DNA from: a virus | DNA length: 64,000 nt | IMG/VR virus record: IMGVR_UViG_3300045988_126262 | Reading direction: 5' to 3' (one strand) | In this document: piece after piece, positions 14,987 to 48,187 of the stretch | Position numbering within the stretch: position 1 is the first letter of the stretch | Layout of the letters: the number at the start of each line of letters is the position of its first letter | Notes under the pieces: generated by a model | Database searches by the model: none | Seen by the model: only the letters and a program-made list of their open reading frames with translations | What the model was told of the DNA's origin: nothing | Made by a program: the position numbers and the translations under genes

Positions 14987-15023
14987 AAAAGTATATGAAA
15001 TTCATTCACTTTTACTATTTTTG
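14987..15023 (+). promoter_or_regulatory. family-B (palindrome plus -7 box) promoter, copy 1
   Basis: Palindrome aaaagtatatgaaattcattcactttt at 14987-15013, then TATTTTTG (TAnnTTTG) at 15016-15023. The conserved CGTATGAAG follows. Confidence 0.65.
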
Positions 15024-15043
15024 AAAAAAAATCGTATGAAGTA

Positions 15044-15826
15044 ATGCGAAACATGCCTATGGACGAAATTAAAATTTTTGAGAATGAGCAATTCGGAAAA
15101 GTAAGAATTGCAATGAGTGAGAGTAACGAGCCATTGTTTTGCTTGGCAGATGTGTGCAGTATTATAGGCATTACTAACGCAAGAAATGTCAGGTCAAGAC
15201 TTGAAGAAGATGATGTCCGCCAAATGGACACCATAGATTCGTTAGGTAGAAATCAACAAGTTACATTTATAACAGAAAGCGGTTTATATGATGTGATAAT
15301 TCGTAGTGACAGCGAAAAAGCAAAGCCGTTTCGCAAATGGGTGACAAGTGAAGTTCTCCCTTCTATCCGAAAACATGGCGTATACCTGACAAACGAAACA
15401 CTTGAAAAGGCTCTTTTATCTCCAGATTATTTAATTAAACTTGCTACCCAAATTAAAGAAGAACGCCAAAAGCGCATTGAAGCGGAAAAAAAAGTAGCTG
15501 AAGCCGCACCGTCAGTTGCATTTACGAATGCGGTTCAATCTTCTAATACTTCTTGCTTGATTGGAGAACTTGCTAAATTAATTGCTCAGAACGGTTATCC
15601 AATCGGAGAAAAGCGGTTATTCGCATGGCTGCGTGAAAACGGATATCTTGGGAAACATGGTGAACGGTACAATATCCCCAATCAGCAATATATTGAACAA
15701 GGATTATTTGAGTTGAAAAAAGGAGTACGGTCTGGTAATGGTGGCGTATTACATACCACTATAACACCGAAAATAACCGGAAAAGGACAAGTATATTTTG
15801 TAAACAAATTCCTTAGAAATCAATAA
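15044..15826 (+). CDS. Bro-N / KilAC-domain phage antirepressor
   Basis: 260 aa. Bro-N block FGKVRIAM..EPLFCLADVC...ESGLYDVIIRSDSEKAKPFRKWVTSEVLPSIRKHG. C-terminal KilAC-like LIGELAKLIAQNGYPIGEKRLFAWLRENGYL. Confidence 0.8.
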   Translation: MRNMPMDEIKIFENEQFGKVRIAMSESNEPLFCLADVCSIIGITNARNVRSRLEEDDVRQMDTIDSLGRNQQVTFITESGLYDVIIRSDSEKAKPFRKWVTSEVLPSIRKHGVYLTNETLEKALLSPDYLIKLATQIKEERQKRIEAEKKVAEAAPSVAFTNAVQSSNTSCLIGELAKLIAQNGYPIGEKRLFAWLRENGYLGKHGERYNIPNQQYIEQGLFELKKGVRSGNGGVLHTTITPKITGKGQVYFVNKFLRNQ

Positions 15827-15867
15827 TAAATACACAGTGTGAAGATGCACTGCACAATTATACAATC

Positions 15868-17274: not shown

Positions 17275-17377
17275 TTAGATAATTATGGGAAATATCAGTT
17301 TTCAAGATAAAGGTGGCGTGGGTATATTGCTTATGCCGCTGGCTTAAAATATATCTTAAAGCTATAAAACGGCATGT

Positions 17378-20014: not shown

Positions 20015-20038
20015 AAATAATTATCTTTACATATAAAT

Positions 20039-20269
20039 ATGAACCCAAATATCCTACAAAAAAAATTACAAGCGGGTGAAGAAGTCTATATTTTAGACGA
20101 TTTTGAAGAATCTGCAATACGTCTTGTTCTTGAAAATGGAAAGACAAATGCTTTCATTAAGCACAAAGGAAGACGCAATGAAAAGGAAATATCACAGTCA
20201 AATGAAACCGTTTGCGAGATAATATTAGGAGGTATAGAAATACCCAAATCAGAATATGACATGTACTAA
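20039..20269 (+). CDS. hypothetical protein (76 aa)
   Basis: Track ORF between the MuF gene and the HD hydrolase gene, overlapping the latter by 14 nt. Confidence 0.5.
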   Translation: MNPNILQKKLQAGEEVYILDDFEESAIRLVLENGKTNAFIKHKGRRNEKEISQSNETVCEIILGGIEIPKSEYDMY

Positions 20270-20693
20270 AAATTCACTATTAGAAAAAGCCCTTCAAATC
20301 GCCGTCAAAGCCCATAGCGGACAAACCGATAAAGCTGGAGCAGCCTACATCTTCCACCCTATCCGTGTGGCAAACCGATGCAAAACAGATGAGGAGCGCA
20401 TAGTAGCTTTATTGCATGACACGATAGAAGATACCGAAGTTACTGCTGAATATTTACTAATGGAAGGCTTTCCTCATAATATTGTGGATGCTATACTTTC
20501 TGTCACTCGTAACGATGATGAGATCTATGACGATTTCATAAAACGGTGTAGATTGAATCCTATTGGAAGACAAGTAAAGCTGCACGACTTGGAGGACAAT
20601 TTGGACGTAACCCGTTTACCTCAAATAATAGAGGAAGACTTACCGAGATTGAACAAGTATCTTAAAGCGTATAAGTTTTTGCTGTCATTGTAG
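20256..20693 (+). CDS. HD-domain small alarmone hydrolase (SAH/Mesh1-like (p)ppGpp hydrolase family)
   Basis: 145 aa. ALQIAVKAHSGQTDKAGAAYIFHPIRVA ... ALLHDTIEDT is the RelA/SpoT hydrolase (HD_4) signature. Confidence 0.8.
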   Translation: MTCTKNSLLEKALQIAVKAHSGQTDKAGAAYIFHPIRVANRCKTDEERIVALLHDTIEDTEVTAEYLLMEGFPHNIVDAILSVTRNDDEIYDDFIKRCRLNPIGRQVKLHDLEDNLDVTRLPQIIEEDLPRLNKYLKAYKFLLSL

Positions 20694-20703
20694 AGAAACG
20701 GTC

Positions 20704-21148: not shown

Positions 21149-21287
21149 ACGTTTTCTGTTACAACTTTTGTGGTGCACTTCATTATTTGTGAAGATATGG
21201 GGATTTTACTTTAAACTGAATTTCGCCTTACGATTCACTGCCTTAGGAAATCGTATAATAGCCCTCAAAGGTTAATAATATTGAATT

Positions 21288-21332
21288 ATGTATGAAATTC
21301 ATACATTTTCAAGATTCCATGCTCTAATTTTG
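21288..21332 (+). promoter_or_regulatory. family-B-like palindrome with a more distant -7 box, copy 2
   Basis: atgtatgaaattcatacat at 21288-21306, with TAATTTTG at 21325-21332. Confidence 0.45.
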
Positions 21333-21389
21333 TGCCCAATAATTAGCATTACCTCGTAAAATTCAATACTTTTGTAATGCTACAAGTTG

Positions 21390-21503
21390 ATGAACTTAAT
21401 CATCTCGCAGGGCAAGCGGTTAATTTGCTCAATAGAAAGTTGGGCTTTTTTTATGCCTATACTTTTATATATTGGCGGCCTCCTATACGTAAGTAAAGAT
21501 TAG
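21390..21503 (+). CDS. possible 37-aa hydrophobic peptide
   Basis: Hand-translated MNLIISQGKRLICSIESWAFFMPILLYIGGLLYVSKD. Its ATG is preceded by the same 14-mer TAATGCTACAAGTT that precedes the ATG at 21591. Confidence 0.25.
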   Translation: MNLIISQGKRLICSIESWAFFMPILLYIGGLLYVSKD

Positions 21504-21590
21504 CCTTTCGAGGTGAAGTCCATTAACTTGTAGCAGCGTATATGGCGGCCGCTTTTTGCTGCCTATCATACAACTTAATGCTACAAGTTT

Positions 21591-22415
21591 ATGGCAGCCC
21601 AAATTCAAGTCCTAAAACAAACAGAATTGCTTGGACACCAATTCACAGTTTACGGAACAGCAGAAAATCCCATGTTCCTTGCAAGAGAGATTGCAGAATG
21701 CATCGATTACGACAAAACAAGCCTTAACAAATTGGTTGCATCTGTAGATGATGATGAAAAGGGTCGGAACATTATTCCGACCCCCGGTGGAAACCAACAA
21801 GTTTGGTTCCTAACCGAAGGTGGTTTATACGAAGTCCTTATGCAAAGCCGCAAGCCAATAGCCAAACAATTCAAGAAAGGGGTCAAACAAATCCTTCACG
21901 AAGTACGTACCACAGGCGGCTACATCTCCACCAAGCAAGAAGACACACCAGAAGAAATCATGGCACGTGCGCTAACCATTGCACAAGCCACTCTTGCCAA
22001 AAGAGAAGAACGATTAAAACAGCTCGAAGCTGAAAATGCCCAGAAACAAATTATCATCGAGAGAAAAGACGAGGAAATATCCATAAAGGACGATACTATA
22101 AAGGTCCTCGCCCCCAAAGGTAAATGTTACGATGAAATCATGTCGAGTGAAGGACTTGTGACGACAAACATGATAGCGGCATTCTTAGGTGTATCGGCTA
22201 TAAAACTGAACAAACTACTCTGTGAATGGGGAGTTCAATACAGACAATCTTCTGTTTACTTCCTCACGGCCAAATACCGCAGTAAAGGATTTACCAAACA
22301 TGTCCCCTACCCTTATATGGATAACGGAGTACAGAAATCAAGAGAACATATGTATTGGACCGAATCAGGCAGAAAGTTTGTCATTGAATTGTTCAATACC
22401 AAACTCTCGGCATAA
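21591..22415 (+). CDS. Bro-N / KilAC-domain antirepressor paralogue
   Basis: 274 aa. Bro-N block (LGHQFTVYG..NPMFLAREIAECI...EGGLYEVLMQSRKPIAKQFKKGVKQILHEVRTTGGY) and a C-terminal KilAC-like region. Confidence 0.8.
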   Translation: MAAQIQVLKQTELLGHQFTVYGTAENPMFLAREIAECIDYDKTSLNKLVASVDDDEKGRNIIPTPGGNQQVWFLTEGGLYEVLMQSRKPIAKQFKKGVKQILHEVRTTGGYISTKQEDTPEEIMARALTIAQATLAKREERLKQLEAENAQKQIIIERKDEEISIKDDTIKVLAPKGKCYDEIMSSEGLVTTNMIAAFLGVSAIKLNKLLCEWGVQYRQSSVYFLTAKYRSKGFTKHVPYPYMDNGVQKSREHMYWTESGRKFVIELFNTKLSA

Positions 22416-23086: not shown

Positions 23087-23118
23087 TTTGCTAATTTGGA
23101 AACAAATTATTATCTTTG
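23087..23118 (+). promoter_or_regulatory. Bacteroidota-type promoter for the toxin-antitoxin pair
   Basis: TTTG at 23087-23090, a 20-nt spacer, and TATCTTTG (TAnnTTTG) at 23111-23118, 21 nt before the ATG at 23139. Confidence 0.55.
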
Positions 23119-23138
23119 TAAATATAACAAGAAACGAT

Positions 23139-23480
23139 ATGGCCGGGCATACGATAACCATAATACTAAGCGATGAGGCGAACAGTTTTGTAAGGCAGCA
23201 GCCATTCAAGGCACAGCAGAAGATAGCGTATAATATTCGTAGAGTGCAGAGTGGTCTAATAGAAAAGGACGTTTTCAAGAAATTGGAAAACTCTGATATA
23301 TGGGAGTTACGGACGCTTTTCAACGGAATTTGTTACCGTCTGTTTGCTTTCTGGGACACCAAGAAAGGGGCTTTGGTAGTGGTTACTCACGGGATAGTGA
23401 AAAAGACGCAGAAAACCCCTAAAAAGGAGATAGAAAAGGCAGAGAGAATAAGGAAAGAATATTTTAATGATAAAAAGTAA
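23139..23480 (+). CDS. Gp49/DUF891 (RelE/HigB-superfamily) toxin-like protein
   Basis: 113 aa from the internal ATG. IWELRTLFNGICYRLFAFWDTKKGALVVVTHGIVKKTQKTPKKEIEKAERIRKEYF is typical of Gp49-like killer proteins. Confidence 0.7.
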   Translation: MAGHTITIILSDEANSFVRQQPFKAQQKIAYNIRRVQSGLIEKDVFKKLENSDIWELRTLFNGICYRLFAFWDTKKGALVVVTHGIVKKTQKTPKKEIEKAERIRKEYFNDKK

Positions 23481-23485
23481 CAGAT

Positions 23486-23818
23486 ATGGCAAAGATGAAT
23501 TTCACACCAGCAGACAAATTGATAGATGATGTATGGGGAAAGGTGGGCACTCCCGAAAGGGACGCTATGGAAGCTCAACTCAAAGATGATTTGCAGGCTT
23601 ATTACATTGGAGAGGCTATCAAGGCAGAAAGGCTCAAACAGAACCTCACACAGGAGGAATTAGGCAAAAAAGTAGGCGTGAAACGCTCTCAAATTTGTAA
23701 GTTGGAGAGCGGTAAGTGTATAATAACACTTCCTACTATGAGCAAAGTTTTTAAGGCTTTGGGAATTACAACGGCCACCCTTGATTTGGGAATAGGCGGA
23801 AAGGTTGCTTTGTGGTAA
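23486..23818 (+). CDS. XRE-family HTH antitoxin-like protein (HigA-like)
   Basis: 110 aa. HTH segment LTQEELGKKVGVKRSQICKLESGK. Starts 5 nt after the toxin-like gene. Confidence 0.7.
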   Translation: MAKMNFTPADKLIDDVWGKVGTPERDAMEAQLKDDLQAYYIGEAIKAERLKQNLTQEELGKKVGVKRSQICKLESGKCIITLPTMSKVFKALGITTATLDLGIGGKVALW

Positions 23819-23842
23819 GAATATAAAGCAGGATCCATAACG

Positions 23843-23870
23843 AGGAGGACGCAAAACGCCCTCCTTTTTT
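23843..23870. terminator. bidirectional intrinsic terminator between convergent operons
   Basis: AGGAGG...CCTCCT stem followed by TTTTTT on the + strand. Confidence 0.6.
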
Positions 23871-23980
23871 GTCGCCTTATACTTTAAATTTAGGTCGTGA
23901 TTAGGTAATAAATAAACTTAAACGAGTTACAAATGAAATCATTGCTTCATTCATAATCTTTAATTCAAATCCAGACAATA

Positions 23981-24742
23981 CTATCCTACAATCGAGAGAT
24001 ACCGGCTTAAAGATTCTATTTCAGCCCGTATAACGACCTTTTGGAACTCTGCCGGATTGTTCTCCGTATGAGAGGCTTCCAGTGCCTTGTAATAGCTTAT
24101 TTTGTCCTCGTTGCTGCCTTTGAGATTTACCAGTGTATAACCGTTGCGGAGTAAGTATAGATTCATCAGAAGCCGAGATGTACGCCCGTTCCCGTCTATG
24201 AACGGGTGTATTCGTACCAACTCATCATGAAGATAAGCCGCAATGAGCACCGGGTGAATGCCCTGCTCCTCCATTCCGGAAAACCTTGTCATAAAAGCCT
24301 CCATTTGTGGTTGTATCAAATACGGCTGTGGAGGGACATGTGTACTTCCCGAAATCATAACAGGCACGCCCCGATAACGTCCGGCATTCTCTCTGTCTAT
24401 GCCATGTAGCACAATAGCGTGTATTTCCTTGATTGTGCGCTCCGATATTTCCATACCTCCCTTTGCAAAGTCCTTTATGTAGTCTATCGCTTCAACGTGG
24501 TTAATCGCTTCAAGGTGTTCCCGCATTGACTTTCCGGCGATAGTAACCCCCTCGTTGACTACTAACTCCGTTTCTTGCAGTGTGAGCGTATTTCCCTCGA
24601 TCCGGTTGCTTTCATAGGTGTATTCAATGGCAAACGCATTCTCTATCTTTTGCAGGGCATCCGGTGGTAATGGGCGCAGCCCCAACAAACGAGCTTTCAA
24701 CGTGTCGCATTGAAGTAATAGCTTTGTTATTTCCTCGTTCAT
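23981..24742 (-). CDS. Fic-family protein (class II, N-terminal inhibitory helix)
   Basis: 253 aa. Active-site motif HPFIDGNGRTSR. Upstream SNRIEG fits the (S/T)xxxE(G/N) inhibitory motif. Confidence 0.85.
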   Translation of the reverse strand: MNEEITKLLLQCDTLKARLLGLRPLPPDALQKIENAFAIEYTYESNRIEGNTLTLQETELVVNEGVTIAGKSMREHLEAINHVEAIDYIKDFAKGGMEISERTIKEIHAIVLHGIDRENAGRYRGVPVMISGSTHVPPQPYLIQPQMEAFMTRFSGMEEQGIHPVLIAAYLHDELVRIHPFIDGNGRTSRLLMNLYLLRNGYTLVNLKGSNEDKISYYKALEASHTENNPAEFQKVVIRAEIESLSRYLSIVG

Positions 24743-24745: not shown

Positions 24746-25009
24746 TTAATCTTTTGACTCAATTACCTTTAACTTCGCTCCACATTTAGGACACGTCAAT
24801 ACAGTAGTATCGATATTGGGGCGTACTTCTTCTGGTGATACAAACAATTCCCATATATTAACTCCTAAATTAGAAGCAATTGAAGTAAGAACTTTAATTG
24901 AAGGATTCCCTGATATATGTTGGTTCAATGCACTTTGGCTAATTCCCATTCTTTCGGCTAACTCTTTTGTAGTTATACCTTTTTGCTCAATAATATCTCT
25001 TATTCTCAT
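24746..25009 (-). CDS. XRE-family HTH repressor (CI-like candidate)
   Basis: 87 aa. HTH segment ITTKELAERMGISQSALNQHISG. Transcribed divergently from the early operon across three operators. Confidence 0.75.
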   Translation of the reverse strand: MRIRDIIEQKGITTKELAERMGISQSALNQHISGNPSIKVLTSIASNLGVNIWELFVSPEEVRPNIDTTVLTCPKCGAKLKVIESKD

Positions 25010-25058
25010 ATCCTAAAAGTTATTTCTGTTACAAAAGTCGTTTTTTTATTAGTATATG

Positions 25059-25139
25059 CAAGCTATATCTTGTATAAATAAAGTTAAATACAAGATAAAT
25101 CTTGCTCAAACCATTGTAAATACAAGATATAACTTGTAT
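25059..25139. promoter_or_regulatory. three operator palindromes CAAG-N6-CTTG spaced 32 bp centre to centre
   Basis: CAAGCTATATCTTG at 25059-25072, CAAGATAAATCTTG at 25091-25104, and ATACAAGATATAACTTGTAT at 25120-25139. The last overlaps TATCTTTA at 25136-25143. Confidence 0.7.
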
Positions 25140-25167
25140 CTTTATATCATAAAACTAAAACAAAGAT

Positions 25168-25455
25168 ATGAAAACGAAAATCAACAAATCGCAACTCTTC
25201 AAAATGGCATGGTCAATGTATAAACGCTCTATCTCGGTTCTCGGCCGTGAGTTCTGCCAGTCGTTCAGTGCTTGTTTGAGGAACGCATGGTTTAAGATGA
25301 AAGCGGAAGCCCGCAAGGCAGAAAAAGAGGCTCGCCGGTTAATGAAAAAGTCGGGACCCGCACAAAAGCCCGAATCGATTGTATTCGACTCAGCAATGGA
25401 AAGAGGTATAATAGAGTATTACAGAAACCAAAGCGGGCGTTATTGCGGAGATTGA
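25168..25455 (+). CDS. hypothetical basic protein (95 aa), first rightward gene of the switch
   Basis: Track ORF. Lys/Arg-rich central helix. Confidence 0.55.
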   Translation: MKTKINKSQLFKMAWSMYKRSISVLGREFCQSFSACLRNAWFKMKAEARKAEKEARRLMKKSGPAQKPESIVFDSAMERGIIEYYRNQSGRYCGD

Positions 25456-29323: not shown

Positions 29324-29360
29324 AAAAGTGCATGAATTTCATATACTTTTTATATATTTA
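29324..29360 (+). promoter_or_regulatory. family-B promoter, copy 3
   Basis: Palindrome aaaagtgcatgaatttcatatactttt at 29324-29350, and TATATTTA at 29353-29360. Confidence 0.6.
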
Positions 29361-29380: not shown

Positions 29381-29785
29381 ATGAAGATTTTTACATCGTA
29401 TTTCGGTAATAGCCGAAAACTGAAAGAGGCGGGAGTTAATATGATTTGCGTAGCAATCGGAAAACCCAGATTTATAGCTGGTATTCCACAAATGCTGAAT
29501 GTTTGCCCGACTCGTTATATGGTAAGTGGACCTTGTTCCCACGATGAATACCTAAAACTTTACGACAGAATATTGGCAAGCCAAGATGCGAACCAAGTCG
29601 TGAAACAAATTGAAATGTTAAGCGGAGGAAAAGACGTTGCTCTTTGTTGCTACGAAAAACCGGGTGATTTCTGCCATCGCCATATTTTGGCAAAATGGAT
29701 CACAGAAAATACTGGTATTGAAATCACAGAATTTGGAGTTGTTGAGAAGAAAGAGCCCAATTATGAACAAGCGAGTTTGTTTTGA
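29381..29785 (+). CDS. DUF488-like protein
   Basis: 134 aa. MKIFTSYFGN... and the C-terminal VALCCYEKPGDFCHRHILAKWI resemble the phage DUF488 clade. Confidence 0.55.
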   Translation: MKIFTSYFGNSRKLKEAGVNMICVAIGKPRFIAGIPQMLNVCPTRYMVSGPCSHDEYLKLYDRILASQDANQVVKQIEMLSGGKDVALCCYEKPGDFCHRHILAKWITENTGIEITEFGVVEKKEPNYEQASLF

Positions 29786-29865
29786 AAATAATGCCAACCA
29801 TCAATAGCGTTTGATGGGATGCTGTCAGATTTGCCAAGCAAGCGGTGGTTTGACAGCATTGGTTT

Positions 29866-29938
29866 GGTTGAATGGCGAAGTGATTAACGCAACGGTCTGC
29901 AAAACCGTTATTCGTGGGTTTGAATCCCACTTCAACCT
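29866..29938 (+). tRNA. tRNA-Cys (GCA)
   Basis: Acceptor GGTTGAA/TTCAACC. Anticodon arm ACGGT-CTGCAAA-ACCGT. T arm GTGGG-TTTGAAT-CCCAC. Discriminator U73, as expected for tRNA-Cys. Confidence 0.9.
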
Positions 29939-29994
29939 CAGAGGACCGAAGTACAAGGAAGGGCAGTGGAAATTCTGTGCAGGCTGCCCATATT

Positions 29995-30064
29995 GCGGAA
30001 ATAGCTCATCGGCAGAGCGTTGGCATTCCAACCAAAGAGTGGGGTTCGATTCCCTGTTTCCGCT
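29995..30064 (+). tRNA. tRNA-Gly(UCC)-like gene with an 8-nt anticodon loop
   Basis: Acceptor GCGGAAA/TTTCCGC with G1-C72, C2-G71, G3-C70 and U73. D arm GCTC-ATCGGCA-GAGC. T loop TTCGATT. The anticodon stem is only TTGG/CCAA around CATTCCAA, which is CUUCCAA plus one extra A. Confidence 0.6.
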
Positions 30065-30287
30065 CAACCCTTATAGTAGCGATAAGCAAAAGCAAGAACA
30101 TTAAAGCTTGTGCAGTTTACGGGGTGATAGAAATTGCTATCTGACACGACTGAAAGAAGCCGAAGAATTGCATAAGTGTTCTTGTAAGTAGCTTGAAGAA
30201 TGATTGAATTTGTGTTTAAGCCTGTCGGGAATACGCTCGACAGGCATTTAACGCAAAATGTATATGAAGTTATATACAACTCAGTAA

Positions 30288-31589
30288 ATGTTTACAGGAA
30301 CGACACCACCAGAAGTTAAATTGCTCCTTCAAGATTTGATGAGAGGAGTAAAAGGGAAAGATGTTTTTATCGGATGTTCAGGAAACTACACCACCGATAA
30401 AATCATGTCAGCGATGGGTTATACTGTACATTCAAACGATGTAAGCCTATATTCTAAATTGATAGCGGATTTACTGCTTGATACTAGCACAGAAGTAGAG
30501 TGTATTAATCCTGAATTAAAAAACGTTTTTGATACATGGGAAGAAACCAAATACAAAAAACTTGTTCAGGTTATGTTCGCTTTAAAAGTAGCGCAATTCC
30601 ATCAACGTAAGAATGATTATCAAGAAGAAATGTTCAACGCATTCATTGAACAATCTAAGATTTATTATGATAATACTATCAAGAAGCTAGAGAAAGGTGC
30701 GTTAGATTTTTCCATTCAAAGTTTTTACTACGGGGATTTTTTGGACTTCCTAAAAATGAAAAGAGGTAAAGGTGTGGGAATTAGTTTTCCACCGACTTAC
30801 AAAGGGGGATATGAAAAATTATTTAGTTATGTCGAAGAAAGTTTTAAATATGAACATGCACCCTATAATATATTCGATCCCAAAGAAGGAGGAGCTGTTT
30901 TTAAGGAACTGTTAGATAACGATGAAAATATCATTTATTCAGACAGATACTTTAATATATTGGAAGGGTACTTGGTCGGGAAAATAAGGCTTGGTTCAAA
31001 TAAAAATCCTCTATTTGCTTATTCAAGCCTACAAACGAATAACCATTATTACATTGAGCGAGATAAATGCGTAAAGCCTTCCCATATCCATATACTTCCG
31101 GTAGATTATCAATTTACAACCGACACAGTAATTACAGTTCGCCCATGTGCCGTTAATGACGTGAACTATTATAAGGCATTCTACATGGCAAACAAGGTCA
31201 ATTACACAACAGGCGGAGATTTTGGCCTTGTGTTCATGGCAGACGGTATGGCTTTTGGGTTTACATCATTCAGCAAGCAGTTATCCACATTGTCGCAGAT
31301 ATTTATGCAAAGCGATTTTGTGGTTAATTCTGAGACCCAGCGTTTGAGCAAATTGCTTATCATGCTGGTGAAATCCCACGATGTCCGGAGGTTGATAGCA
31401 CGGAAGATGTATAATTATTATGATGGAGTGAAGACTACTGTATATACCACCAGTCCTGTATCGATGAAATACAGGGGGGTATTCAACCTTGAGCGGAGAG
31501 ATGAAGGTAAATTGATATATTCTTCCATCTTTACAGAGAAATCATTAAACGAACTATATGCGCTATGGATAAGAAAGTACAAGAAGTAA
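30288..31589 (+). CDS. Dam-like (D12-class related) methyltransferase-like protein with an atypical motif IV
   Basis: 433 aa. VFIGCSGNYT (FxGxG-like), HSNDVS (ND motif) and ISFPPTY in place of DPPY. Inference only. Confidence 0.4.
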   Translation: MFTGTTPPEVKLLLQDLMRGVKGKDVFIGCSGNYTTDKIMSAMGYTVHSNDVSLYSKLIADLLLDTSTEVECINPELKNVFDTWEETKYKKLVQVMFALKVAQFHQRKNDYQEEMFNAFIEQSKIYYDNTIKKLEKGALDFSIQSFYYGDFLDFLKMKRGKGVGISFPPTYKGGYEKLFSYVEESFKYEHAPYNIFDPKEGGAVFKELLDNDENIIYSDRYFNILEGYLVGKIRLGSNKNPLFAYSSLQTNNHYYIERDKCVKPSHIHILPVDYQFTTDTVITVRPCAVNDVNYYKAFYMANKVNYTTGGDFGLVFMADGMAFGFTSFSKQLSTLSQIFMQSDFVVNSETQRLSKLLIMLVKSHDVRRLIARKMYNYYDGVKTTVYTTSPVSMKYRGVFNLERRDEGKLIYSSIFTEKSLNELYALWIRKYKK

Positions 31590-32329
31590 AAGACGTGCAT
31601 ATCATTCAGGAGAAATTAGATGAAGTAAACAATTTGATTGCTCCATATCAACTGGCATACGTCAGTCCAACCAAAGATTGTATCCCATTGGAAAAAAACG
31701 CCCATTATATGGAAAAGCAGACGCTTGACCGATTGACTACTAATGTAGCAGAAGATGGCTTTCTTTCTCAATTACCGTTTGCAATGAAACGGAATGACGG
31801 TAAATATCTTATTTTATCTGGGAATCATCGGTTAAAAGCGAGTATCAAAGCGAAACTTGAATATATCCTTATCCTCTATATTGACGAGGTGGATAAAGAC
31901 AAACAGATTGCTTATACATTATCACATAATGCTTTGGTAGGTAAGGATGACATGCAAATGCTCAAAGAAATATATTCGGAAATGCGTAGCATAGAATCAC
32001 GAGAATATTCAGGGTTAAACGGTATAAAGTTCATGGATACAGATAAAATACCGACTGTATCTATTAACGATGGGGATATTGAACTTACTGAAATGAAATT
32101 CTTGTTTACTGAAAGTAGGAGCAATAATGTCAAAAATGTGCTTGCAGAACTAGAAAAACAGAAATTATCAGAAGATTGTTCTATCGTCGTTGGCTCTTAT
32201 GAAGCTTTTATTAAAGTGGCTACCGAAGTGAAGAATAAATATAATATTAAGAGCAATACAGTCGCATTTGCACGAATGGTAGATATTTGTGAAACATATC
32301 TTAAGGATTTGGAAGAAAAGGAGGAATAG
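31565..32329 (+). CDS. ParB N-terminal-domain (nuclease-like) protein
   Basis: 254 aa. KYLILSGNHRLKASIKA fits the ParB/Srx GxxR motif. Lies immediately upstream of the terminase genes. Confidence 0.6.
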   Translation: MDKKVQEVKDVHIIQEKLDEVNNLIAPYQLAYVSPTKDCIPLEKNAHYMEKQTLDRLTTNVAEDGFLSQLPFAMKRNDGKYLILSGNHRLKASIKAKLEYILILYIDEVDKDKQIAYTLSHNALVGKDDMQMLKEIYSEMRSIESREYSGLNGIKFMDTDKIPTVSINDGDIELTEMKFLFTESRSNNVKNVLAELEKQKLSEDCSIVVGSYEAFIKVATEVKNKYNIKSNTVAFARMVDICETYLKDLEEKEE

Positions 32330-35687: not shown

Positions 35688-35725
35688 AAAAGTGTATGAA
35701 ATTCATATACTTTACTGTATATTTG
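35688..35725 (+). promoter_or_regulatory. family-B promoter, copy 4
   Basis: Palindrome aaaagtgtatgaaattcatatacttt at 35688-35713, and TATATTTG at 35718-35725. Confidence 0.65.
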
Positions 35726-35813
35726 CAAAAAGCGTATGAAGATGTACGCCACCCGACTTGTCGTAAACACCTGTTTGTCCGTTTAGGCGGAGGCACATCT
35801 GAAAGAAGATGCG

Positions 35814-35853
35814 AATAGTCTGCTGGCTACATTGCTACGCAGACTATTTTTTT
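35814..35853 (+). terminator. strong intrinsic terminator inside the leader of the head operon
   Basis: 10-bp stem AATAGTCTGC/GCAGACTATT plus a T7 tract. It lies between promoter B4 and the scaffold gene ATG at 35871. Confidence 0.7.
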
Positions 35854-35870
35854 GTTTAAACCTAAATGAA

Positions 35871-36581
35871 ATGAACAGACAACAGCAAGTTTTCGTAAGG
35901 TTGAAACTTAAAGCGAAGGCGTTAGGGTTCAACGCAAAGGAATTGAAGGGTATCGCCGCCAAGATTGCCGATAACCTGAAATCCGCAGAAGATGCCTCAG
36001 AAGAGGATGTAAACGCAGAAATCGACGAGCAGATAGAAGCGGTTCTCCCTTACCTCACTTTCGGCCAGTCGCAAGCCAACCGTTTGCTTGACGAATGGAA
36101 GAAAAAACACCCCGAATCAGAAGAAGATGATGATGACGACGTTGACGATGACACGTCAAAAGGCGGCTCTCGTCCAGCTGGTTCAAACAAGAAAAATCCC
36201 AACAACAAAGGAAATGAACAAGACGAAGAACCCGCATGGTTTAAGTCTTTCAGAGAGCAACAGGAAGCCCGTTTTGCCGCATTGGAAGGTGAAAAAGTTT
36301 CTAACTTGCGTAAGGCCAAACTTGAAGCCCTGCTGAAAGACACTGGAACATTCGGTTCACGTACCTTGAAAAGCTTCTCTAAGATGAGCTTTGAAAGTGA
36401 CGACGATTTCGAGGAGTTCTATTCAGATGTTGAGGAAGACCTGAAGAATTATAATCAAGAGCGTGCAGATGCAGGTTTGGCAACATTGGCAACCCCTCCT
36501 GCTGCCGGAAGTAAAGGTTCGGGTAAACAAGACGAAGTATTAACCGACAAAGAAGTTGAAGATTTAGTCAACACTTTCTAA
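35871..36581 (+). CDS. putative scaffolding protein
   Basis: 236 aa. Helical with a highly acidic tract EEDDDDDVDDD. Its position before the capsid gene supports the call. The track start at 35832 is a TTG in the terminator loop. Confidence 0.55.
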   Translation: MNRQQQVFVRLKLKAKALGFNAKELKGIAAKIADNLKSAEDASEEDVNAEIDEQIEAVLPYLTFGQSQANRLLDEWKKKHPESEEDDDDDVDDDTSKGGSRPAGSNKKNPNNKGNEQDEEPAWFKSFREQQEARFAALEGEKVSNLRKAKLEALLKDTGTFGSRTLKSFSKMSFESDDDFEEFYSDVEEDLKNYNQERADAGLATLATPPAAGSKGSGKQDEVLTDKEVEDLVNTF

Positions 36582-43255: not shown

Positions 43256-43364
43256 ATCTTATGCTGTTAAGATTGTTTCGTCAAAAGTATAATACAATAA
43301 TCATTTATTAAAATATTTATACTCACACATTAGTTAAACTTTATTAACTCTATTCTATTTTATC

Positions 43365-43400
43365 AAAAGTATATGAATTTCATACACTTTTGTATATTTG
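43365..43400 (+). promoter_or_regulatory. family-B promoter, copy 5
   Basis: Palindrome aaaagtatatgaatttcatacactttt at 43365-43391, and TATATTTG at 43393-43400. Confidence 0.65.
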
Positions 43401-43445
43401 CAAATGATGTGATGTTACATCTACCCCTTTTAATCGAAAAGACTC

Positions 43446-46400: not shown

Positions 46401-47729
46401 GTCGGTGAAATTATATCCGCAGCCGGAAGTATCTCCTCTTCTACGTTACAAATGATTGATGGTATTGTAACACTTGCAAATAGTTCTTCTACTGCCATGT
46501 CAGGAACGGCCGAAGCTGCATCTACGGCAATTCAGAATGTAGAAAAAGCCTCCGTAATACTGTCGATTGTAGGTGCAGCCTTGCAAGTAGCAACAAAAAT
46601 AGTAAGCTTATTTAGACAAGAGTCGTCGTATGAAAAGTACGAAGAAGCAAAGGAGGTGTACGAGTCATATATAGATATATTGGATCAGATAATCGAGAAA
46701 CAATTGGAATTGGCCGATTCGCTGGCGGGAGAAAACGCACAGGCTGCCTATGACAAAGCGATAGAATTATACAAGAAACAGGCAGATTCGGCACGGGTAT
46801 TAGGAGCACAATATTACAAATCTAGGGAATCCGGGGAAAAATCGAAAGGGTATCAAGATTTTTACGGTATGTCCGCCGCCGGTTGGCAGCAAGCCGCATC
46901 CGCACTAGGTATATCTGCGCAAGAATTGGCTATGATGATGTCAAAAAACATGACTAACTTATTTAACCTTCCCGTTGAGCAATTAGAAAAACTAATGTCG
47001 GAAGCTCCTCTATTTATATCACAGCTGGATAGTGAAGCGCAAGAATACATAAAGCAGATTATCGAAGCGGAGAATAATATTAAATCGACGGCAGAGCGAG
47101 AGATGGAGAACGCCACAGGCATATCTTTTGAATCTTTCTCCGATGACATATTAGAGTCCTTGTATGATGTGGAGAAAGGAGCGGAGGACATTGCGGACGA
47201 CATCGCAGACTATATGAGAAAAGCTCTCATTAAAGCCATGTATGTAAAGCAATATGAACCGGAAATGCGCAAATGGTATGAGATGTGGGCGGAGGCGACA
47301 AAAGACGGAGAAATCGACACGGAAGAACAGACCGCACTGGATAACCTAAAAAATTCAATTATTCAAGGAGCCGAAGCGGGAGCCGCCGCTATCAATGCAC
47401 AATTTGGAACAGGTTCTACCACCGAACAAAAGTCGACAGCCGGAGGTTCTGAAACCATGTCACAAGATACAGCAACGGAATTAAACGGCCGGTTTACAGC
47501 GTTGCAGCTTTCTGGTGAAGAAATCAAAAATCAAATGATTTCAGCCGTAATCTCTCTAAATTCTCTTTTATCTTTATCAACTAATAGCAATTCTATATTA
47601 AATAACATTCTTAATCAACACGTGATTACTAACAGCTACTTAGAAGACATTGCAAAATACACGAAGCCAATTCTTGAATTTGGCGATAAATTTGATAGAA
47701 TGATTTCAATTTTTAACAATAAACTATAA
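43446..47729 (+). CDS. tail tape measure protein
   Basis: 1427 aa. TP901-type core TAAKTPFDLQGVANGARQLLAYG and long coiled-coil regions. Confidence 0.9.
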   Translation: MAGLHFDITGDNSNFLRKLREVETGVTNTSKEIEKNGLGIEDMFNKMTKAAAAFGAGFTAKELIQNIIQVRGEFQQLEVAFTTMLGSSEKANVLMAQLTETAAKTPFDLQGVANGARQLLAYGTSAEDVNETLIRLGNIAAGLSQPLGDLVYLYGTTMTQGRLYTQDLNQFTGRGIPMIKELAKEFGVAESEIKGMVEAGMIGFPEVQKVIQNLTNEGGMFFNLMQEQSKTITGQISNIGDSFSMMLNDIGKANEGIINDALSGVSYLIGNYETVGKTLLEIVGTYGAYKAALITITALQKVYSAVLAQSALNQSLAAASGITLSNAEALAATRTKLLQVAQAALNKTLLANPYVSVAAAVAALGLGIYKLVTYQTEAEKAQERLNAAEKESEKAALSEQRELAKLNGELSSLKEGTDEYNTVKEKIVAGYSKYYEGLEEEINKVGLTEEAYEKLTKAITDSYGARQYQHFKSQQEDWLDNIMSDNLGKIQDRLYSELGDKEGAKLYSQIYHAILERRDLDAAIQDKLNEIQGKGTIFADSRIDTYISNIREAQKITEDLDEKAREKFGVTSINTSQQAANEPFSTEGKSISQLEEEIKKAETSLASLKKALADGSGTKEAVEQQEAYIKSLQDTVLEREKDLRVINEVKTQISKLEKEQGETVSGSKEYNALQSRIDALRAKLPKTATGLTDINAYTDQLNRIKELRKKNASERIRLDTDLENQVEQARINAMEDGIDKEMAQRELNNKIELQDIERQKQEYIRKITEAQRQIFEAEENAKAAKDKNYKKKAFDPSSVSVDTSMFDNMSEYTKQKQANETANYYNNILAKYQDYTTKRLSVTKKYQNDLANLEKAGGTEEQKAELSYQLTEALNAIDKEFAMREVSFQTWANSITNMSLDELERLLTEAEQELARMENEGGTNGNELAVQRAKVTATKDRIANIKSKESTSPDKRSIKEWQELYKTLSKVEREFEELGDTIGGTVGEIISAAGSISSSTLQMIDGIVTLANSSSTAMSGTAEAASTAIQNVEKASVILSIVGAALQVATKIVSLFRQESSYEKYEEAKEVYESYIDILDQIIEKQLELADSLAGENAQAAYDKAIELYKKQADSARVLGAQYYKSRESGEKSKGYQDFYGMSAAGWQQAASALGISAQELAMMMSKNMTNLFNLPVEQLEKLMSEAPLFISQLDSEAQEYIKQIIEAENNIKSTAEREMENATGISFESFSDDILESLYDVEKGAEDIADDIADYMRKALIKAMYVKQYEPEMRKWYEMWAEATKDGEIDTEEQTALDNLKNSIIQGAEAGAAAINAQFGTGSTTEQKSTAGGSETMSQDTATELNGRFTALQLSGEEIKNQMISAVISLNSLLSLSTNSNSILNNILNQHVITNSYLEDIAKYTKPILEFGDKFDRMISIFNNKL

Positions 47730-47730
47730 A

Positions 47731-48150
47731 ATGGCATCGGGAGAGTTTTACATAAATGGGAAAGACTGCTATACAACTTGGGGTATAAGTATGGATACAT
47801 CATCTCTTTCCTTCTTAATGACACCGTCACCTTTAAAAGAGTTCATCGAAAACAAGTCTCGATTAGAACATGGCAAACGAGTCCTGTCCTCTAATCCTAA
47901 AATCGATGAACGAAATATCACTTTAACTTTTAACCTGACGGCAAAAACGGAAGAAGAATTCTTTTCAAGATACAACAGCTTTTGTGAAGAATTGGCAACA
48001 GGCATAATAAATATAAAAACAAAGTATCAACCAAATATTACTTACAAAACAATCTATATTTCATGCAATCAATTTACGCAATTCATGAGAGGAATAGCAC
48101 GATTTTCTCTAAAACTTGTCGAATATAATCCAGCAGATAGAAATTCATAA
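47731..48150 (+). CDS. distal tail protein (Dit)-like
   Basis: 139 aa. FYINGKDCYTTWGISM...ERNITLTFNLTA resembles siphovirus tail component proteins. Follows the tape measure gene. Confidence 0.5.
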   Translation: MASGEFYINGKDCYTTWGISMDTSSLSFLMTPSPLKEFIENKSRLEHGKRVLSSNPKIDERNITLTFNLTAKTEEEFFSRYNSFCEELATGIINIKTKYQPNITYKTIYISCNQFTQFMRGIARFSLKLVEYNPADRNS

Positions 48151-48187
48151 AAAAGTGCATGTTTTTCATACACTTTTATTATCTTTG
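48149..48187 (+). promoter_or_regulatory. family-B promoter, copy 6
   Basis: Palindrome aaaaagtgcatgtttttcatacactttt at 48149-48177, and TATCTTTG at 48180-48187. Confidence 0.6.

What the first reader, a model, noticed from the sequence alone, without database searches (positions are those of the whole stretch)
14987..48187. A 27-bp palindrome abutting a TAnnTTTG box defines a dispersed promoter family in front of the late operons
A near-identical dyad with consensus AAAAGTRYATGAAWTTCATAYACTTTT occurs at five positions:
- 14987-15013
- 29324-29350
- 35688-35713
- 43365-43391
- 48149-48177

Each copy lies 1-4 nt upstream of a TAnnTTTG-type -7 box. The boxes are TATTTTTG, TATATTTA, TATATTTG, TATATTTG and TATCTTTG. 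A looser copy sits at 21288-21306.

None of the five has a TTTG -33 element at the usual 19-21 nt spacing, because the palindrome occupies that position. This is what one expects of activator-dependent promoters.

The downstream genes are:
- antirepressor, portal and MuF
- DUF488, tRNAs, ParB and terminase
- scaffold and capsid
- tape measure
- tail fibre

Three copies also share the initial transcribed sequence CGTATGAAG 11-13 nt after the box, which gives near-leaderless starts or 2- to 16-codon mini-ORFs.
Basis: partly seen in the sequence, partly recalled or inferred. Interest (0 to 1): 0.65.

Follow-up and report, generated by a model that had tools for sequence, protein, structure and literature searches.

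The report
Palindrome-tagged late promoters of a Bacteroides phage
A temperate Bacteroides-type phage marks the start of each of its virion-gene operons with the same 27-base palindrome butted against a host-type promoter box, most likely the docking site of a phage-encoded switch protein that turns the late genes on together; the design is familiar from coliphage P1 but has not been described for gut Bacteroidota phages.

Summary
Five near-identical 27-bp dyads (0 expected by chance) each sit 1-3 nt upstream of a TAnnTTTG/A box on the coding strand (p about 6e-13), in front of Ant-portal-MuF, the DNA-modification/terminase block, scaffold-capsid, tape measure and tail fibre. A degenerate sixth copy lies 14 nt upstream of a box before a second Ant gene.

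The design is widespread. The pattern AAAGTGA-N11-TCACTTT-N1-5-TAnnTTTG occurs in at least 111 IMG/VR stretches (39 contexts), mostly before orthologous late genes. The inner 13 nt are alike within a phage (11.1/13) and differ between phages (6.5/13, p<2e-4). This points to a phage-encoded, co-evolving DNA-binding factor, not a hairpin, terminator or host motif.

One relative carries a canonical TTTG -33 element where the dyad sits. I favour positive control, as at P1 Lpa late promoters (0.45). A repressor operator (0.27) and a Q-like loading site (0.10) remain open. No regulator could be assigned.

The shared CGTATGAAG is not a start codon signal. It is half of a conserved 5' leader hairpin (6-bp stem, GAAGNN loop) with compensatory changes. 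The scaffold leader also carries a conserved terminator.

The parts
14987..15013 (.). Dyad copy 1 (AAAAGTATATGAAATTCATTCACTTTT), ahead of Ant1-portal-MuF
   Evidence: 1 mismatch. The downstream genes are Ant (Bro-N plus KilAC), portal and MuF.
15016..15023 (+). -7 box TATTTTTG of promoter 1, 2 nt after the dyad
14974..14981 (-). Second -7-type box (TAAATTTG) on the opposite strand, 5 nt left of dyad 1; a possible divergent promoter sharing the dyad
   Evidence: The same box lies at 6 nt in relatives with other dyad sequences, including L220.
15032..15049 (+). 5' leader hairpin TCGTAT-GAAGTA-ATGCGA, which contains CGTATGAAG
21284..21310 (.). Degenerate dyad (core 21290-21304), distal class
   Evidence: The 14-nt spacing is conserved in relatives L012, L025 and L072.
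21325..21332 (+). -7 box TAATTTTG, 14 nt after the degenerate dyad; leads into the structured Ant2 leader
21427..21452 (+). Terminator-like hairpin plus T7 inside the Ant2 leader, about 140 nt before the Ant2 start at 21591
29324..29350 (.). Dyad copy 2, ahead of DUF488 - tRNAs - DAM-like/GNAT - ParB_N - TerL
   Evidence: 0 mismatches.
29353..29360 (+). -7 box TATATTTA of promoter 2
35688..35714 (.). Dyad copy 3, ahead of the scaffold - major capsid - head-tail genes
35718..35725 (+). -7 box TATATTTG of promoter 3
35732..35749 (+). 5' leader hairpin GCGTAT-GAAGAT-GTACGC
   Evidence: Compensatory pairs appear in the alignment of 7 leaders.
35814..35853 (+). Conserved intrinsic terminator at the end of the roughly 125-nt scaffold leader, just upstream of the scaffold start codon
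   Evidence: (compensatory UA>CG and AU>GC pairs).
43365..43391 (.). Dyad copy 4, ahead of the tape measure gene, following two reverse-strand genes
43393..43400 (+). -7 box TATATTTG of promoter 4
43406..43421 (+). Variant 5' hairpin GATGT-GATGTT-ACATC
48151..48177 (.). Dyad copy 5; starts right after the stop codon of the 139-aa tail gene, ahead of the 1130-aa tail fibre-like gene
   Evidence: 2 mismatches, both in the centre.
48180..48187 (+). -7 box TATCTTTG of promoter 5
48195..48212 (+). 5' leader hairpin TCGTAT-GAAGAT-ATACGA
   Evidence: PHROG alignments to the protein begin at residue 7-8, that is at the ATG at 48220.

Best explanation
**What it is.** The 27-bp dyad is the binding site (operator) of a phage-encoded, probably dimeric or tetrameric, sequence-specific DNA-binding protein. 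It is fused 1-3 nt upstream of a host sigma-ABfr-type -7 box. It therefore covers roughly -15 to -41 of the promoter and takes the place of the usual -33 TTTG element.

**How it works (proposed).** Host RNA polymerase alone uses these promoters poorly. When the factor is made after induction or infection, it binds all copies and recruits or stabilises polymerase. The five virion-gene operons (Ant-portal-MuF, DNA-modification/terminase, scaffold-capsid, tape measure, tail fibre) then switch on together. This is the logic of the Lpa-dependent late promoters of coliphage P1.

**Distal class.** A second class of sites has the same dyad 13-16 nt (about one helical turn) further upstream of the box. 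The same factor would serve these sites. In the window this class precedes the structured leader of a second Ant gene.

**Shown and inferred.**
- Shown: the cassette architecture, its dispersal, its conservation across relatives, and its phage-specific sequence.
- Inferred: that a protein binds it, that the protein is phage-encoded, and that the sign of regulation is positive.

**Separate module.** The transcripts start with a conserved stem-loop (GAAGNN hexaloop). This is a separate module that also occurs behind non-dyad promoters.
For: **Dispersal and placement**
- Five copies against 0 expected by chance.
- All five abut a + strand TAnnTTTG/A box, p about 6e-13.
- All five head late modules and none lies in the early/replication region.

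**Sequence pattern fits protein contact rather than structure**
- Conservation is confined to the dyad, while the flanks differ.
- The variable positions 7-8 and 20-21 change without compensation. This gives weak hairpins of -5.8 to -11.7 kcal/mol.

**The architecture is a family**
- 111 stretches in 39 contexts match AAAGTGA-N11-TCACTTT-N1-5-TAnnTTTG, against about 1 expected by my own rough estimate.
- These sit upstream of scaffold, portal, Ant, tail-fibre, ParB-TerS-TerL and lysis genes.

**The factor is probably phage-encoded**
- Inner-dyad similarity is 11.1/13 within a phage and 6.45/13 between phages, permutation p<2e-4.
- The exact dyad is absent from 185,579 species-representative genomes, apart from one isolated exact match in a Rickettsiales MAG, a lineage unrelated to the inferred Bacteroidota host.

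**A promoter element is missing**
- No -33 TTTG is present at any copy.
- Relative L171 has TTTG, 20 nt, then TATCTTTG in place of the dyad, ahead of the same leader.
- In B. thetaiotaomicron, 81% of primary TSSs carry the -33/-7 motif (PMC7366714).

**Spacing classes** differ by about one helical turn.

**Precedent**
- P1 has 11 late promoters with a conserved 9-bp inverted repeat bound by Lpa.
- Late genes of well-studied phages are under positive control (PMC10695390).
Against: - No TSS, binding or expression data exist for these promoters.
- No homologue of a known late activator was found among about 70 proteins scanned.
- A dyad centred near -28 to -31 covers the core promoter, which is the commonest position for repressors.
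- Phage-specific diversification of the inner dyad resembles immunity (repressor/operator) evolution.
- In relatives L305 and L308 the same architecture precedes an HTH - DUF6291-like - DnaC-like replication module, so it is not strictly a late feature everywhere.
- The -33 element is not universal in Bacteroidota.
- Two of the six promoters are followed by leader terminators. These would require control beyond initiation.
Confidence: 0.45

Rival explanations
1. **Repressor operator.** A phage-encoded repressor binds the dyad and blocks RNA polymerase at otherwise active promoters that lack a -33 element. This keeps the virion operons and the Ant antirepressor genes silent in the lysogen or early in infection. 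At the distal-class sites (dyad centre near -41 to -44) the same protein could act as an activator, as lambda CI does at PRM.
For: - The dyad spans about -15 to -41 and so overlaps the core promoter.
- Relatives are temperate, with an integrase and an S24 CI-like repressor just beyond the window end.
- The phage-specific inner dyad resembles immunity specificity.
- Both Ant paralogues lie behind dyads.
- In L305 and L308 the dyad promoter also heads the replication module, which fits a global repressor.
- Two spacing classes exist.
- Distal-class dyads bracket a small regulatory module in L386 and L017.
Against: - Within the window the dyads lie only at late operons and at the second Ant gene, not at early genes.
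- The immunity region of relative L316, around the S24 repressor, contains no dyad or half-site and has different repeats.
- The Bacteroidota LexA-like motifs GGA-N5-TCC and CTAA-N5-TTAG do not match.
- Known dispersed repressor sites (P1 C1 operators, mycobacteriophage stoperators; from my own knowledge) are not restricted to late operons.
- Late genes of studied phages are under positive control.
Confidence: 0.27
2. **Loading site for a processive antiterminator (lambda Q-like logic).** The promoters fire constitutively. A phage factor bound at the dyad joins RNA polymerase at the promoter and makes it resistant to terminators, including the conserved terminators in the scaffold and Ant2 leaders. 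The GAAGNN hairpin could be a second, RNA-level (boxB-like) recognition element.
For: - A conserved intrinsic terminator with compensatory changes ends the roughly 125-nt scaffold leader, about 20-25 nt before the scaffold start codon in 7 diverse relatives.
- There is a terminator in the Ant2 leader.
- Distal-class dyad promoters in L017, L043 and L386 are followed by short transcripts that end in terminators.
- The 5' stem-loop is conserved, with a GAAGNN loop.
- L171 keeps the leader and terminator behind a canonical promoter.
Against: - Four of the six window promoters have only 20-50 nt before the first gene, and no terminator was seen in that stretch.
- No -7-like pause element was seen in the initially transcribed region of the five promoters (sequences read).
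- Known Q-binding elements are not long palindromes (from my own knowledge).
- The only Q-like signal is the fold match of the g25168 model to Q21, which is not significant (E 3.5, probability 0.18).
Confidence: 0.1
3. **Factor-independent element.** The dyad is a promoter-strength element read by host RNA polymerase, or a DNA/RNA structure (cruciform, or a terminator for the upstream operon). In this view its phage-specific sequence is kept uniform by gene conversion between promoter cassettes.
For: - The outer arms AAAGTG/CACTTT recur across very different phages.
- Inner arms are usually self-complementary, whatever their sequence.
- A-tract, stem and T-tract resemble a bidirectional terminator.
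- Dyads coincide with mosaic junctions: L003-type relatives join the 21.26-kb flank to the scaffold promoter at the dyad.
- Another Bacteroides phage, B124-14, has its own conserved promoter family. A Bacteroides-phage promoter, P_BfP1E6, is constitutively strong in phage-free B. thetaiotaomicron (bioRxiv 10.1101/2025.03.18.644028).
Against: - Hairpins are weak, and the variable positions are not compensated within the window copies.
- The terminator scan does not call them.
- Some family members have non-complementary inner sequences that are nevertheless identical between sites of one phage, for example L220 with three sites.
- The outer arms are not universal: L312 has AAAACGATTG...CAATCGAAATTT.
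- The B124-14 promoters have no such dyad.
Confidence: 0.1
4. **DNA-level site for a ParB-like protein (parS/KorB-like).** The phage's two ParB-family proteins would use the site for partition, packaging or silencing.
For: - A ParB-like gene (phrog_12305) ends 197 nt upstream of dyad 1, and a ParB_N protein lies in the operon behind dyad 2.
- ParB_N genes are the first gene behind dyad promoters in L306, L308 and L279.
Against: - The strict coupling to a -7 box at fixed distance, in every context, points to transcription.
- Pfam support for ParB_N is weak (E 0.0024, below the cut-off), and no HTH or ParA partner was seen.
- The ParB-like genes sit beside methylase and DUF488 genes, which suggests DNA modification.
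Confidence: 0.03

Closest known systems
Lpa-dependent late promoters of coliphage P1
   Same: [quoted passage not shown]
- P1 is also a temperate phage with Ant and ParB genes (from my own knowledge).
   Different: - The promoter type differs: Bacteroidota -7 TAnnTTTG rather than sigma-70 -10.
- The dyad is 27 bp rather than a 9-bp repeat.
- No Lpa homologue was detected.
- Dependence on an activator is untested here.
Mu C/Mor and P2 Ogr / P4 delta late promoters (from my own knowledge, not checked in papers here)
   Same: - A handful of late operons lack a -35 element, and each carries a dyad-symmetric activator site.
- Satellite P4 carries the same sites as its helper. This is a possible parallel to the L386 element that shares the window's dyad.
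   Different: - Those sites are centred at -43.5 (Mu) or -55 (P2), upstream of the core promoter.
- Here the main class is centred near -28 to -31, and only the distal class sits near -41 to -44.
Lambda-type Q antitermination cassette (PR'-QBE-tR')
   Same: - A factor site lies inside the promoter.
- A short leader ends in a terminator directly upstream of the late genes (scaffold leader).
   Different: - Only 2 of the 6 promoters have such a terminator.
- The site is a long palindrome.
- No pause element and no credible Q homologue were found.
Dispersed repressor sites: P1 C1 operators, phiC31 conserved inverted repeats, Cluster A mycobacteriophage stoperators (from my own knowledge)
   Same: - Multi-copy sites are scattered over the genome.
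- Their sequences are phage-specific and co-evolve with the repressor.
   Different: - Those sites are not confined to late operon starts.
- They are not locked to a fixed distance from a promoter box.
- Stoperators are asymmetric.
Conserved promoter family of Bacteroides phage B124-14, and the engineered phage promoter P_BfP1E6
   Same: A Bacteroides phage reuses one promoter cassette (upstream element, TATATTTG, conserved 5' UTR) before several operons.
   Different: - The B124-14 cassette has an AT-rich GTTAAAAnTTAAAGTTT-type upstream region and no AAAGT...ACTTT dyad.
- P_BfP1E6 is constitutive in phage-free cells.
- I could not confirm its sequence or its origin, because the source paper is not held.
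T4 MotA-dependent middle promoters (from my own knowledge)
   Same: An activator site centred near -30 replaces the -35 element.
   Different: - The MotA box is asymmetric.
- It needs the AsiA co-factor.

Membership tests
Bacteroidota primary-sigma (sigma-ABfr) promoter | -7 element TAnnTTTG | tested here: met
   Four of the five boxes match exactly and one ends in A. The degenerate sixth site has TAATTTTG.
Bacteroidota primary-sigma (sigma-ABfr) promoter | -33 element TTTG about 19-21 nt upstream of the -7 box | tested here: not met
   No TTTG lies at spacing 15-24 for any copy. The dyad occupies that stretch. Relative L171 does have one.
Bacteroidota primary-sigma (sigma-ABfr) promoter | Transcription start a few nt downstream of the box | not testable with these tools
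   Needs dRNA-seq or 5'-RACE.
Activator-dependent phage late promoters (P1 Lpa type) | Several copies, each at the head of a late operon | tested here: met
   Five copies precede the portal, terminase, capsid, tape-measure and tail-fibre modules. The same holds in relatives.
Activator-dependent phage late promoters (P1 Lpa type) | Inverted repeat next to the -10-type element, in place of the upstream element | tested here: met
Activator-dependent phage late promoters (P1 Lpa type) | Cognate activator gene in the phage (Lpa, C, Ogr or RinA family) | tested here: inconclusive
   - No such family was hit among about 70 proteins in PHROGs or Pfam.
- Many small ORFs have no hits.
- 1.5-6 kb of the genome lies outside the window.
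Activator-dependent phage late promoters (P1 Lpa type) | Promoter inactive without the factor and active with it | not testable with these tools
   Needs reporter assays.
Intrinsic (rho-independent) terminator | Stable G+C-rich stem followed by a U tract, with the stem kept by compensatory change | tested here: not met
   - Folding energies are -5.8 to -11.7 kcal/mol, with uncompensated mismatches.
- The terminator scan does not call them.
Prophage CI / LexA-type operator | Copies in the immunity region next to the repressor gene, or a match to known Bacteroidota LexA-like motifs | tested here: not met
   - No dyad or half-site lies near the S24 repressor of relative L316.
- The motifs GGA-N5-TCC and CTAA-N5-TTAG differ from the dyad.
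Lambda Q-type late antitermination cassette | Terminator between the promoter and the late genes | tested here: inconclusive
   Present and conserved in the scaffold leader and present in the Ant2 leader. Absent at the other four promoters.
Lambda Q-type late antitermination cassette | Q-family protein | tested here: inconclusive
   The top PDB fold hits of the g25168 model are Q21, but at E 3.5, probability 0.18 and TM 0.3. There is no sequence-level hit.

The most novel reading that the evidence does not exclude
Gut Bacteroides temperate phages of this clade may run their late genes through a previously undescribed three-part cassette:
- a phage-specific palindrome at the promoter;
- a GAAGNN-loop hairpin at the 5' end of the transcript, resembling boxB;
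- a leader terminator.

Together these would form a combined initiation and antitermination switch, whose factor belongs to no known family. In addition, a small element integrated at tRNA-Arg (L386 type) carries perfect copies of the helper's palindrome. It also shares a near-identical small gene (g22623, 96% identity). It might therefore listen in on, or supply, the same regulator, in the manner of a satellite.
Probability: 0.12. Interest if true: 0.75.

Novelty: new variant of a known kind. Interest (0 to 1): 0.5.

Why it matters
Almost nothing is known about how temperate, non-crAss Bacteroides phages time their gene expression. This finding bears on that in four ways.

- **A tractable handle.** A compact and easily recognised cassette marks the late operons in at least a hundred gut viral contigs. 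It offers a way to find the missing regulator, for example by DNA pull-down with a 27-bp oligonucleotide.
- **Annotation.** The cassette could be used to annotate late operons in metagenomic phage genomes.
- **Engineering.** It could be used to build phage-inducible or orthogonal promoters for Bacteroides. Each phage has its own inner-dyad "address".
- **Evolution.** The phage-specific inner dyads provide a natural dataset on the co-evolution of a regulator and its sites. They may also report cross-talk between a phage and a satellite-like element.

Tried and rejected
**1. Bacteroidota LexA-like SOS box.** The published motifs do not match the dyad.

**2. Host transcription-factor site or common prophage.** The exact 23-nt dyad is absent from the GTDB species representatives, apart from one isolated exact match in a Rickettsiales MAG.

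**3. RNA hairpin or terminator reading of the dyad.** The structures are weak and the mismatches are uncompensated.

**4. CGTATGAAG as a third half-site for the dyad-binding protein.**
- Only 5 of 30 promoters repeat 7 nt or more of their dyad downstream, against about 7% in permutations.
- The same hairpin follows dyads with unrelated inner sequences, and also follows non-dyad promoters.

**5. CI (S24) repressor as the binder.** The immunity region of relative L316 contains no dyad.

**6. g13686 as a Q-like regulator upstream of the first late promoter.** In L312 this gene lies between the large terminase and the portal, so it is probably a packaging or head gene.

**7. g24746 (HTH with zinc ribbon).**
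- It has its own ATACAAGATA repeats.
- It is only 45-53% identical in loci that share the exact dyad.

**8. Structure models of g22623 and g25168.**
- g22623 folds as a three-helix coiled coil with no significant PDB match.
- The g25168 model has only non-significant matches to Q21.
- Neither model shows a recognisable DNA-binding fold.

**9. Nearest cultured phages.**
- There is no nucleotide match.
- Major capsid protein relatives at 36-49% identity (MT835773, MT835576) have no such motif.
- A BLAST search with promoter variants against the cultured phage records found nothing.

**10. Comparison with the published Bacteroides phage promoter P_BfP1E6.**
- The source paper (PMC5576361) is not held.
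- B124-14 promoters, inspected directly, are a different family.

**11. Shared-protein census across 111 loci.** Only the adjacent structural genes emerged, because each locus covers a few kb around its promoter.

Full report
**1. Observation**

None of 100 shuffles gave a match. The sites are:
- 14987-15013
- 29324-29350
- 35688-35714
- 43365-43391
- 48151-48177

The core GTATGAAATTCATAC of the looser copy lies at 21290-21304. As a 27-mer (21284-21310) this copy has 5 mismatches, all in the outer arms.

Each of the five dyads is followed on the + strand, after 2, 2, 3, 1 and 2 nt, by TATTTTTG, TATATTTA, TATATTTG, TATATTTG and TATCTTTG. The + strand of the window holds only 57 TAnnTTT[GA] boxes. 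The chance of five out of five adjacencies is therefore about 6e-13. None of the boxes has a TTTG 15-24 nt upstream.

PHROG and Pfam scans confirm the downstream genes:
- Copy 1: Ant (Bro-N plus KilAC), portal, MuF-like head morphogenesis protein.
- Copy 2: DUF488-N3a, two tRNAs, DAM-like/GNAT protein, ParB_N protein, large terminase.
- Copy 3: scaffold-like protein, major capsid protein.
- Copy 4: tape measure protein.
- Copy 5: a 1130-aa tail protein.

Two details need correction.
- CGTATGAAG occurs three times in the window, always behind a dyad. It starts 7-9 nt after the box, not 11-13 nt.
- The coordinates of copies 3 and 5 are off by one and two bases.

**2. Is the dyad a structure or a protein site?**

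As RNA the dyads fold weakly, at -5.8 to -11.7 kcal/mol. The positions that vary between copies (7-8 against 20-21) change without compensation and leave internal mismatches. The terminator scan does not call them.

Sequence identity stops at the edges of the dyad, and the flanks of the five copies are unrelated. Two conserved blocks per half-site (AAAGT and ATGAA), separated by two free positions, look like protein contacts rather than a stem.

**3. Where else does it occur?**

- The exact 23-nt dyad is absent from 185,579 species-representative bacterial and archaeal genomes. The one exception is an isolated exact match in a Rickettsiales MAG, a lineage unrelated to the inferred Bacteroidota host. 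It is therefore not a common host motif.
Nearly all of these are close relatives with the same flanks.
- A few independent contexts exist: L096/L006/L043 and L017/L032. There the same dyad lies 13-16 nt, not 1-3 nt, upstream of a TATATTTG box. The window's degenerate sixth copy has the same wider spacing (14 nt to TAATTTTG at 21325).
- There are thus two spacing classes, about one helical turn apart. I found no dyad without a box at one of these distances.

**4. A wider family**

Major capsid protein relatives at 75-83% identity lack the window's dyad. Reading their scaffold promoters was informative.
- L177 has AAAGTGAAGCAGAAAGAATCACTTT, 3 nt, TATATTTG. The length, outer arms and position are the same, but the inner sequence differs.
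- L171 has no dyad. It has a canonical TTTG, 20 nt, TATCTTTG promoter in front of the same leader.

A scan for AAAGTGA-N11-TCACTTT-N1-5-TAnnTTTG returned 111 stretches in 39 sequence contexts. By my own rough estimate about one match would be expected by chance.

These promoters sit upstream of homologues of the scaffold, portal, Ant and tail-fibre genes (26-99% identity). In phages with little similarity to the window they sit upstream of ParB_N-TerS-TerL and lysis modules. In L305 and L308 one also precedes an HTH - DUF6291-like - DnaC-like replication module. The cassette is therefore not strictly late in every phage.

The outer arms are common but not universal. L312 has AAAACGATTGTTATTCAATCGAAATTT before its portal gene.

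**5. The inner dyad is phage-specific**

I compared nine phages or contigs that each have two or more distinct dyad promoters. The inner 13 nt agree at 11.1 of 13 positions within a phage and at 6.45 of 13 between phages. None of 5000 label permutations reached the observed value.

Even non-palindromic inner sequences are repeated exactly within a phage, as at the three sites of L220.

This is what a phage-encoded, co-evolving trans-acting factor would produce. The alternative is concerted evolution by gene conversion between cassettes. That cannot be excluded, and dyads do coincide with mosaic junctions (L003-type relatives).

**6. Lifestyle and host**

- The window is not the whole genome. 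In relatives its end joins its start after a further 1.5-6 kb.
- In L316 that extra piece encodes a tyrosine integrase, an HTH-plus-Peptidase_S24 CI-like repressor and a GerE-type regulator. The phage group is therefore temperate.
- Homologues of window proteins occur on Bacteroides-labelled and Mb-sized contigs.
- L386 is an element beside tRNA-Arg in a contig that carries T9SS and TamB genes, which points to a Bacteroidota host.
- The immunity region of L316 has its own AT-rich repeats and neither the dyad nor its half-sites. The CI-like repressor is therefore unlikely to be the dyad binder.
- The published Bacteroidota LexA-like motifs do not match (PMC8565304).

**7. Who binds the dyad?**

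This is unresolved.
- About 70 proteins were scanned against PHROGs or Pfam without a hit to a late-activator family.
- The best lead is comparative. The divergent loci that share the exact window dyad (L017, L096, L386) also share a small module. It comprises g22623 (93-97% identity), g25168 (69-92%) and an HTH-zinc-ribbon protein (45-53%). Their structural genes, by contrast, are only 35-58% identical to the window's.
- In L386 two perfect distal-class dyads bracket this module.
- The HTH protein has its own ATACAAGATA repeats in the window.
- AlphaFold models gave a three-helix coiled coil for g22623 (pLDDT 77) with no significant PDB match.
- The model for g25168 (pLDDT 74) was helix-rich, and its top PDB hits are the antiterminator Q21. 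Those hits are at E 3.5 and probability 0.18, which is not significant.
- Neither protein can be called the regulator.

**8. The transcribed side**

CGTATGAAG is the 5' arm plus loop of a hairpin with a 6-bp stem, a GAAGNN hexaloop and a second 6-bp stem. The variants found are:
- TCGTAT/ATACGA
- TCGTAT/ATGCGA
- GCGTAT/GTACGC
- GCATGT/ACATGC
- ATTGTAT/ATACAAT

Fourteen variants lie 2-9 nt after a -7 box. They include promoters with unrelated dyads and promoters without any dyad (L171, L268).

In an alignment of seven scaffold leaders the hairpin has two fully compensated pairs. The leader also ends in a strong, conserved terminator (window 35814-35853) with two further compensated pairs, about 20-25 nt before the scaffold start codon.

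The ATG inside the hairpin is not conserved as an ORF. In L177 it reads ATG-TGA. PHROG alignments to the tail-fibre protein begin at its residue 8. The mini-ORF or leaderless reading is therefore not supported.

A test of the idea that the hairpin is a third half-site for the dyad binder failed.

The Ant2 leader behind the degenerate dyad is also highly structured (z = -4.6) and contains a terminator at 21427-21452.

**9. Mechanism**

*Solid.* This is a cis-regulatory cassette tied to sigma-ABfr-type -7 boxes, reused at the heads of the late operons, with a phage-specific address.

*Sign of regulation: inferred.* I favour positive control (0.45) for these reasons:
- Within the window the dyads are confined to late operons and the second Ant gene.
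- They replace the -33 element that an orthologous promoter in L171 possesses.
- In B. thetaiotaomicron, 81% of primary start sites have the -33/-7 motif (PMC7366714).
- The two spacing classes keep the site on one face of the helix.
- The only well-studied dispersed palindromes at late operon starts are activator sites. P1 Lpa has 11 such promoters, and late genes are under positive control in all well-studied phages (PMC10695390).

*Against positive control:*
- A site centred near -28 to -31 is a typical repressor position.
- Phage-specific diversification resembles immunity evolution.
- One relative uses the cassette on its replication module.
- The -33 element could not be found in Flavobacterium.

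A repressor, possibly a dual regulator that activates from the distal position, gets 0.27. A Q-like loading site that works with the leader terminators gets 0.10. A factor-independent element gets 0.10. A ParB-type site gets 0.03.

**10. Novelty**

- The logic is that of known activator-dependent late promoters.
- The promoter type, the dyad, its position and the (unknown) factor are different.
- My paper searches returned no description of such a cassette.
- The conserved promoter family of Bacteroides phage B124-14, inspected directly, is a different sequence family without a dyad.
- I rate this a new variant of a known kind, of moderate interest. It is most useful as a handle for finding the regulator and for annotating and engineering Bacteroides phages.

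Noticed in passing
L386 8093-8119 and 11896-11922 (ENA ERZ27292537 k141_260127, 223 kb): An element integrated beside tRNA-Arg(CCG) in a Bacteroidota chromosome (T9SS and TamB genes next door) carries two perfect window-type dyads.
- Each dyad lies 13-16 nt upstream of TATATTTG on the minus strand.
- Each is followed by a short transcript with a terminator.
- Together they bracket a module: HTH-zinc ribbon, g25168-like, WYL_2, g22623-like (96% identity) and a 73-aa protein.

This may be a satellite-like or defective element that shares the phage's regulator.
   Followed up: partly
window 21337-21600: The leader of the second Ant gene is strongly structured (z = -4.6).
- GCTACAAGTT occurs at 21379 and again at the Ant2 start codon region (21580).
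- Its complement lies at 21525.
- A terminator lies at 21427-21452.

Alternative pairings could gate Ant2 translation, reminiscent of RNA control of ant in P1 and P22.
   Followed up: partly
window 35729-35875 and relatives L171, L177, L293, L295, L301: The scaffold-capsid operon is preceded by a conserved leader of about 125 nt. It contains a GAAGNN-loop 5' hairpin, a conserved GAACTTGTCGTRA block, and an intrinsic terminator about 20-25 nt before the scaffold start codon. Both stems show compensatory changes.
   Followed up: yes
window 24746-25455 (repeats at 25066-25129): A divergent gene pair: an 87-aa HTH-zinc-ribbon protein with Fic behind it on the minus strand, and a basic 95-aa protein on the plus strand. 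Three ATACAAGATA/TATCTTGTAT repeats lie between them. This is a separate switch-like circuit, unrelated to the dyad.
   Followed up: partly
window 29381-32329: A gene cluster of DUF488-N3a, two tRNAs (one with an odd anticodon loop), a DAM-like-phage1 plus GNAT-phage-like protein, and a ParB_N protein lies just upstream of the large terminase. It looks like a DNA-modification module.
   Followed up: no
window 14974-14981 (minus strand): Dyad 1 has a second box, TAAATTTG, 5 nt to its left and pointing the other way. The same arrangement at 6 nt is kept in relatives with different dyad sequences (for example L220, L297). A single dyad may therefore serve divergent promoters.
   Followed up: partly
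L003 7634 (and two similar loci) against window 21255-21283 and 35688-35760: Some relatives join the upstream flank of the 21.3-kb degenerate dyad directly to the scaffold promoter at the dyad. In the 75% relatives the scaffold promoter follows MuF/g20256 directly. The window's 21.0-35.7 kb block therefore behaves as an insertion bounded by dyads, so the dyads coincide with mosaic junctions.
   Followed up: partly
beyond window end: L316 10927-16971: Close relatives continue past the window's last gene with a tyrosine integrase, a lipoprotein, a 380-aa protein, an HTH-plus-S24 CI-like repressor, two small HTH proteins and a GerE-type regulator. The phage group is therefore temperate, and the window lacks its immunity region.
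   Followed up: yes
window 23088-24742: A HigB/HigA-like pair (phrog_2523 plus an XRE HTH protein, 23088-23818) and a Fic/DOC protein (23981-24742, minus strand) sit in the non-structural block between the head genes.
   Followed up: no
L017 1120-1145, L043 about 1590-1615, L386 about 11930-11950: GGGGGAATTCCCC-type palindromes and related GGAAWTTCC hairpins recur next to the distal-class dyads in the divergent loci. Their function is unknown.
   Followed up: no
L311 (Bacteroides phage B124-14) 37968, 24522, 4193, 2836 (minus strand): B124-14 reuses its own conserved promoter cassette before several operons: GTTAAAAnTTAAAGTTT..., then TATATTTG, then a conserved CAGTGTCAAAAGGAAACAAA 5' UTR. This is a different family from the one studied here.
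   Followed up: partly
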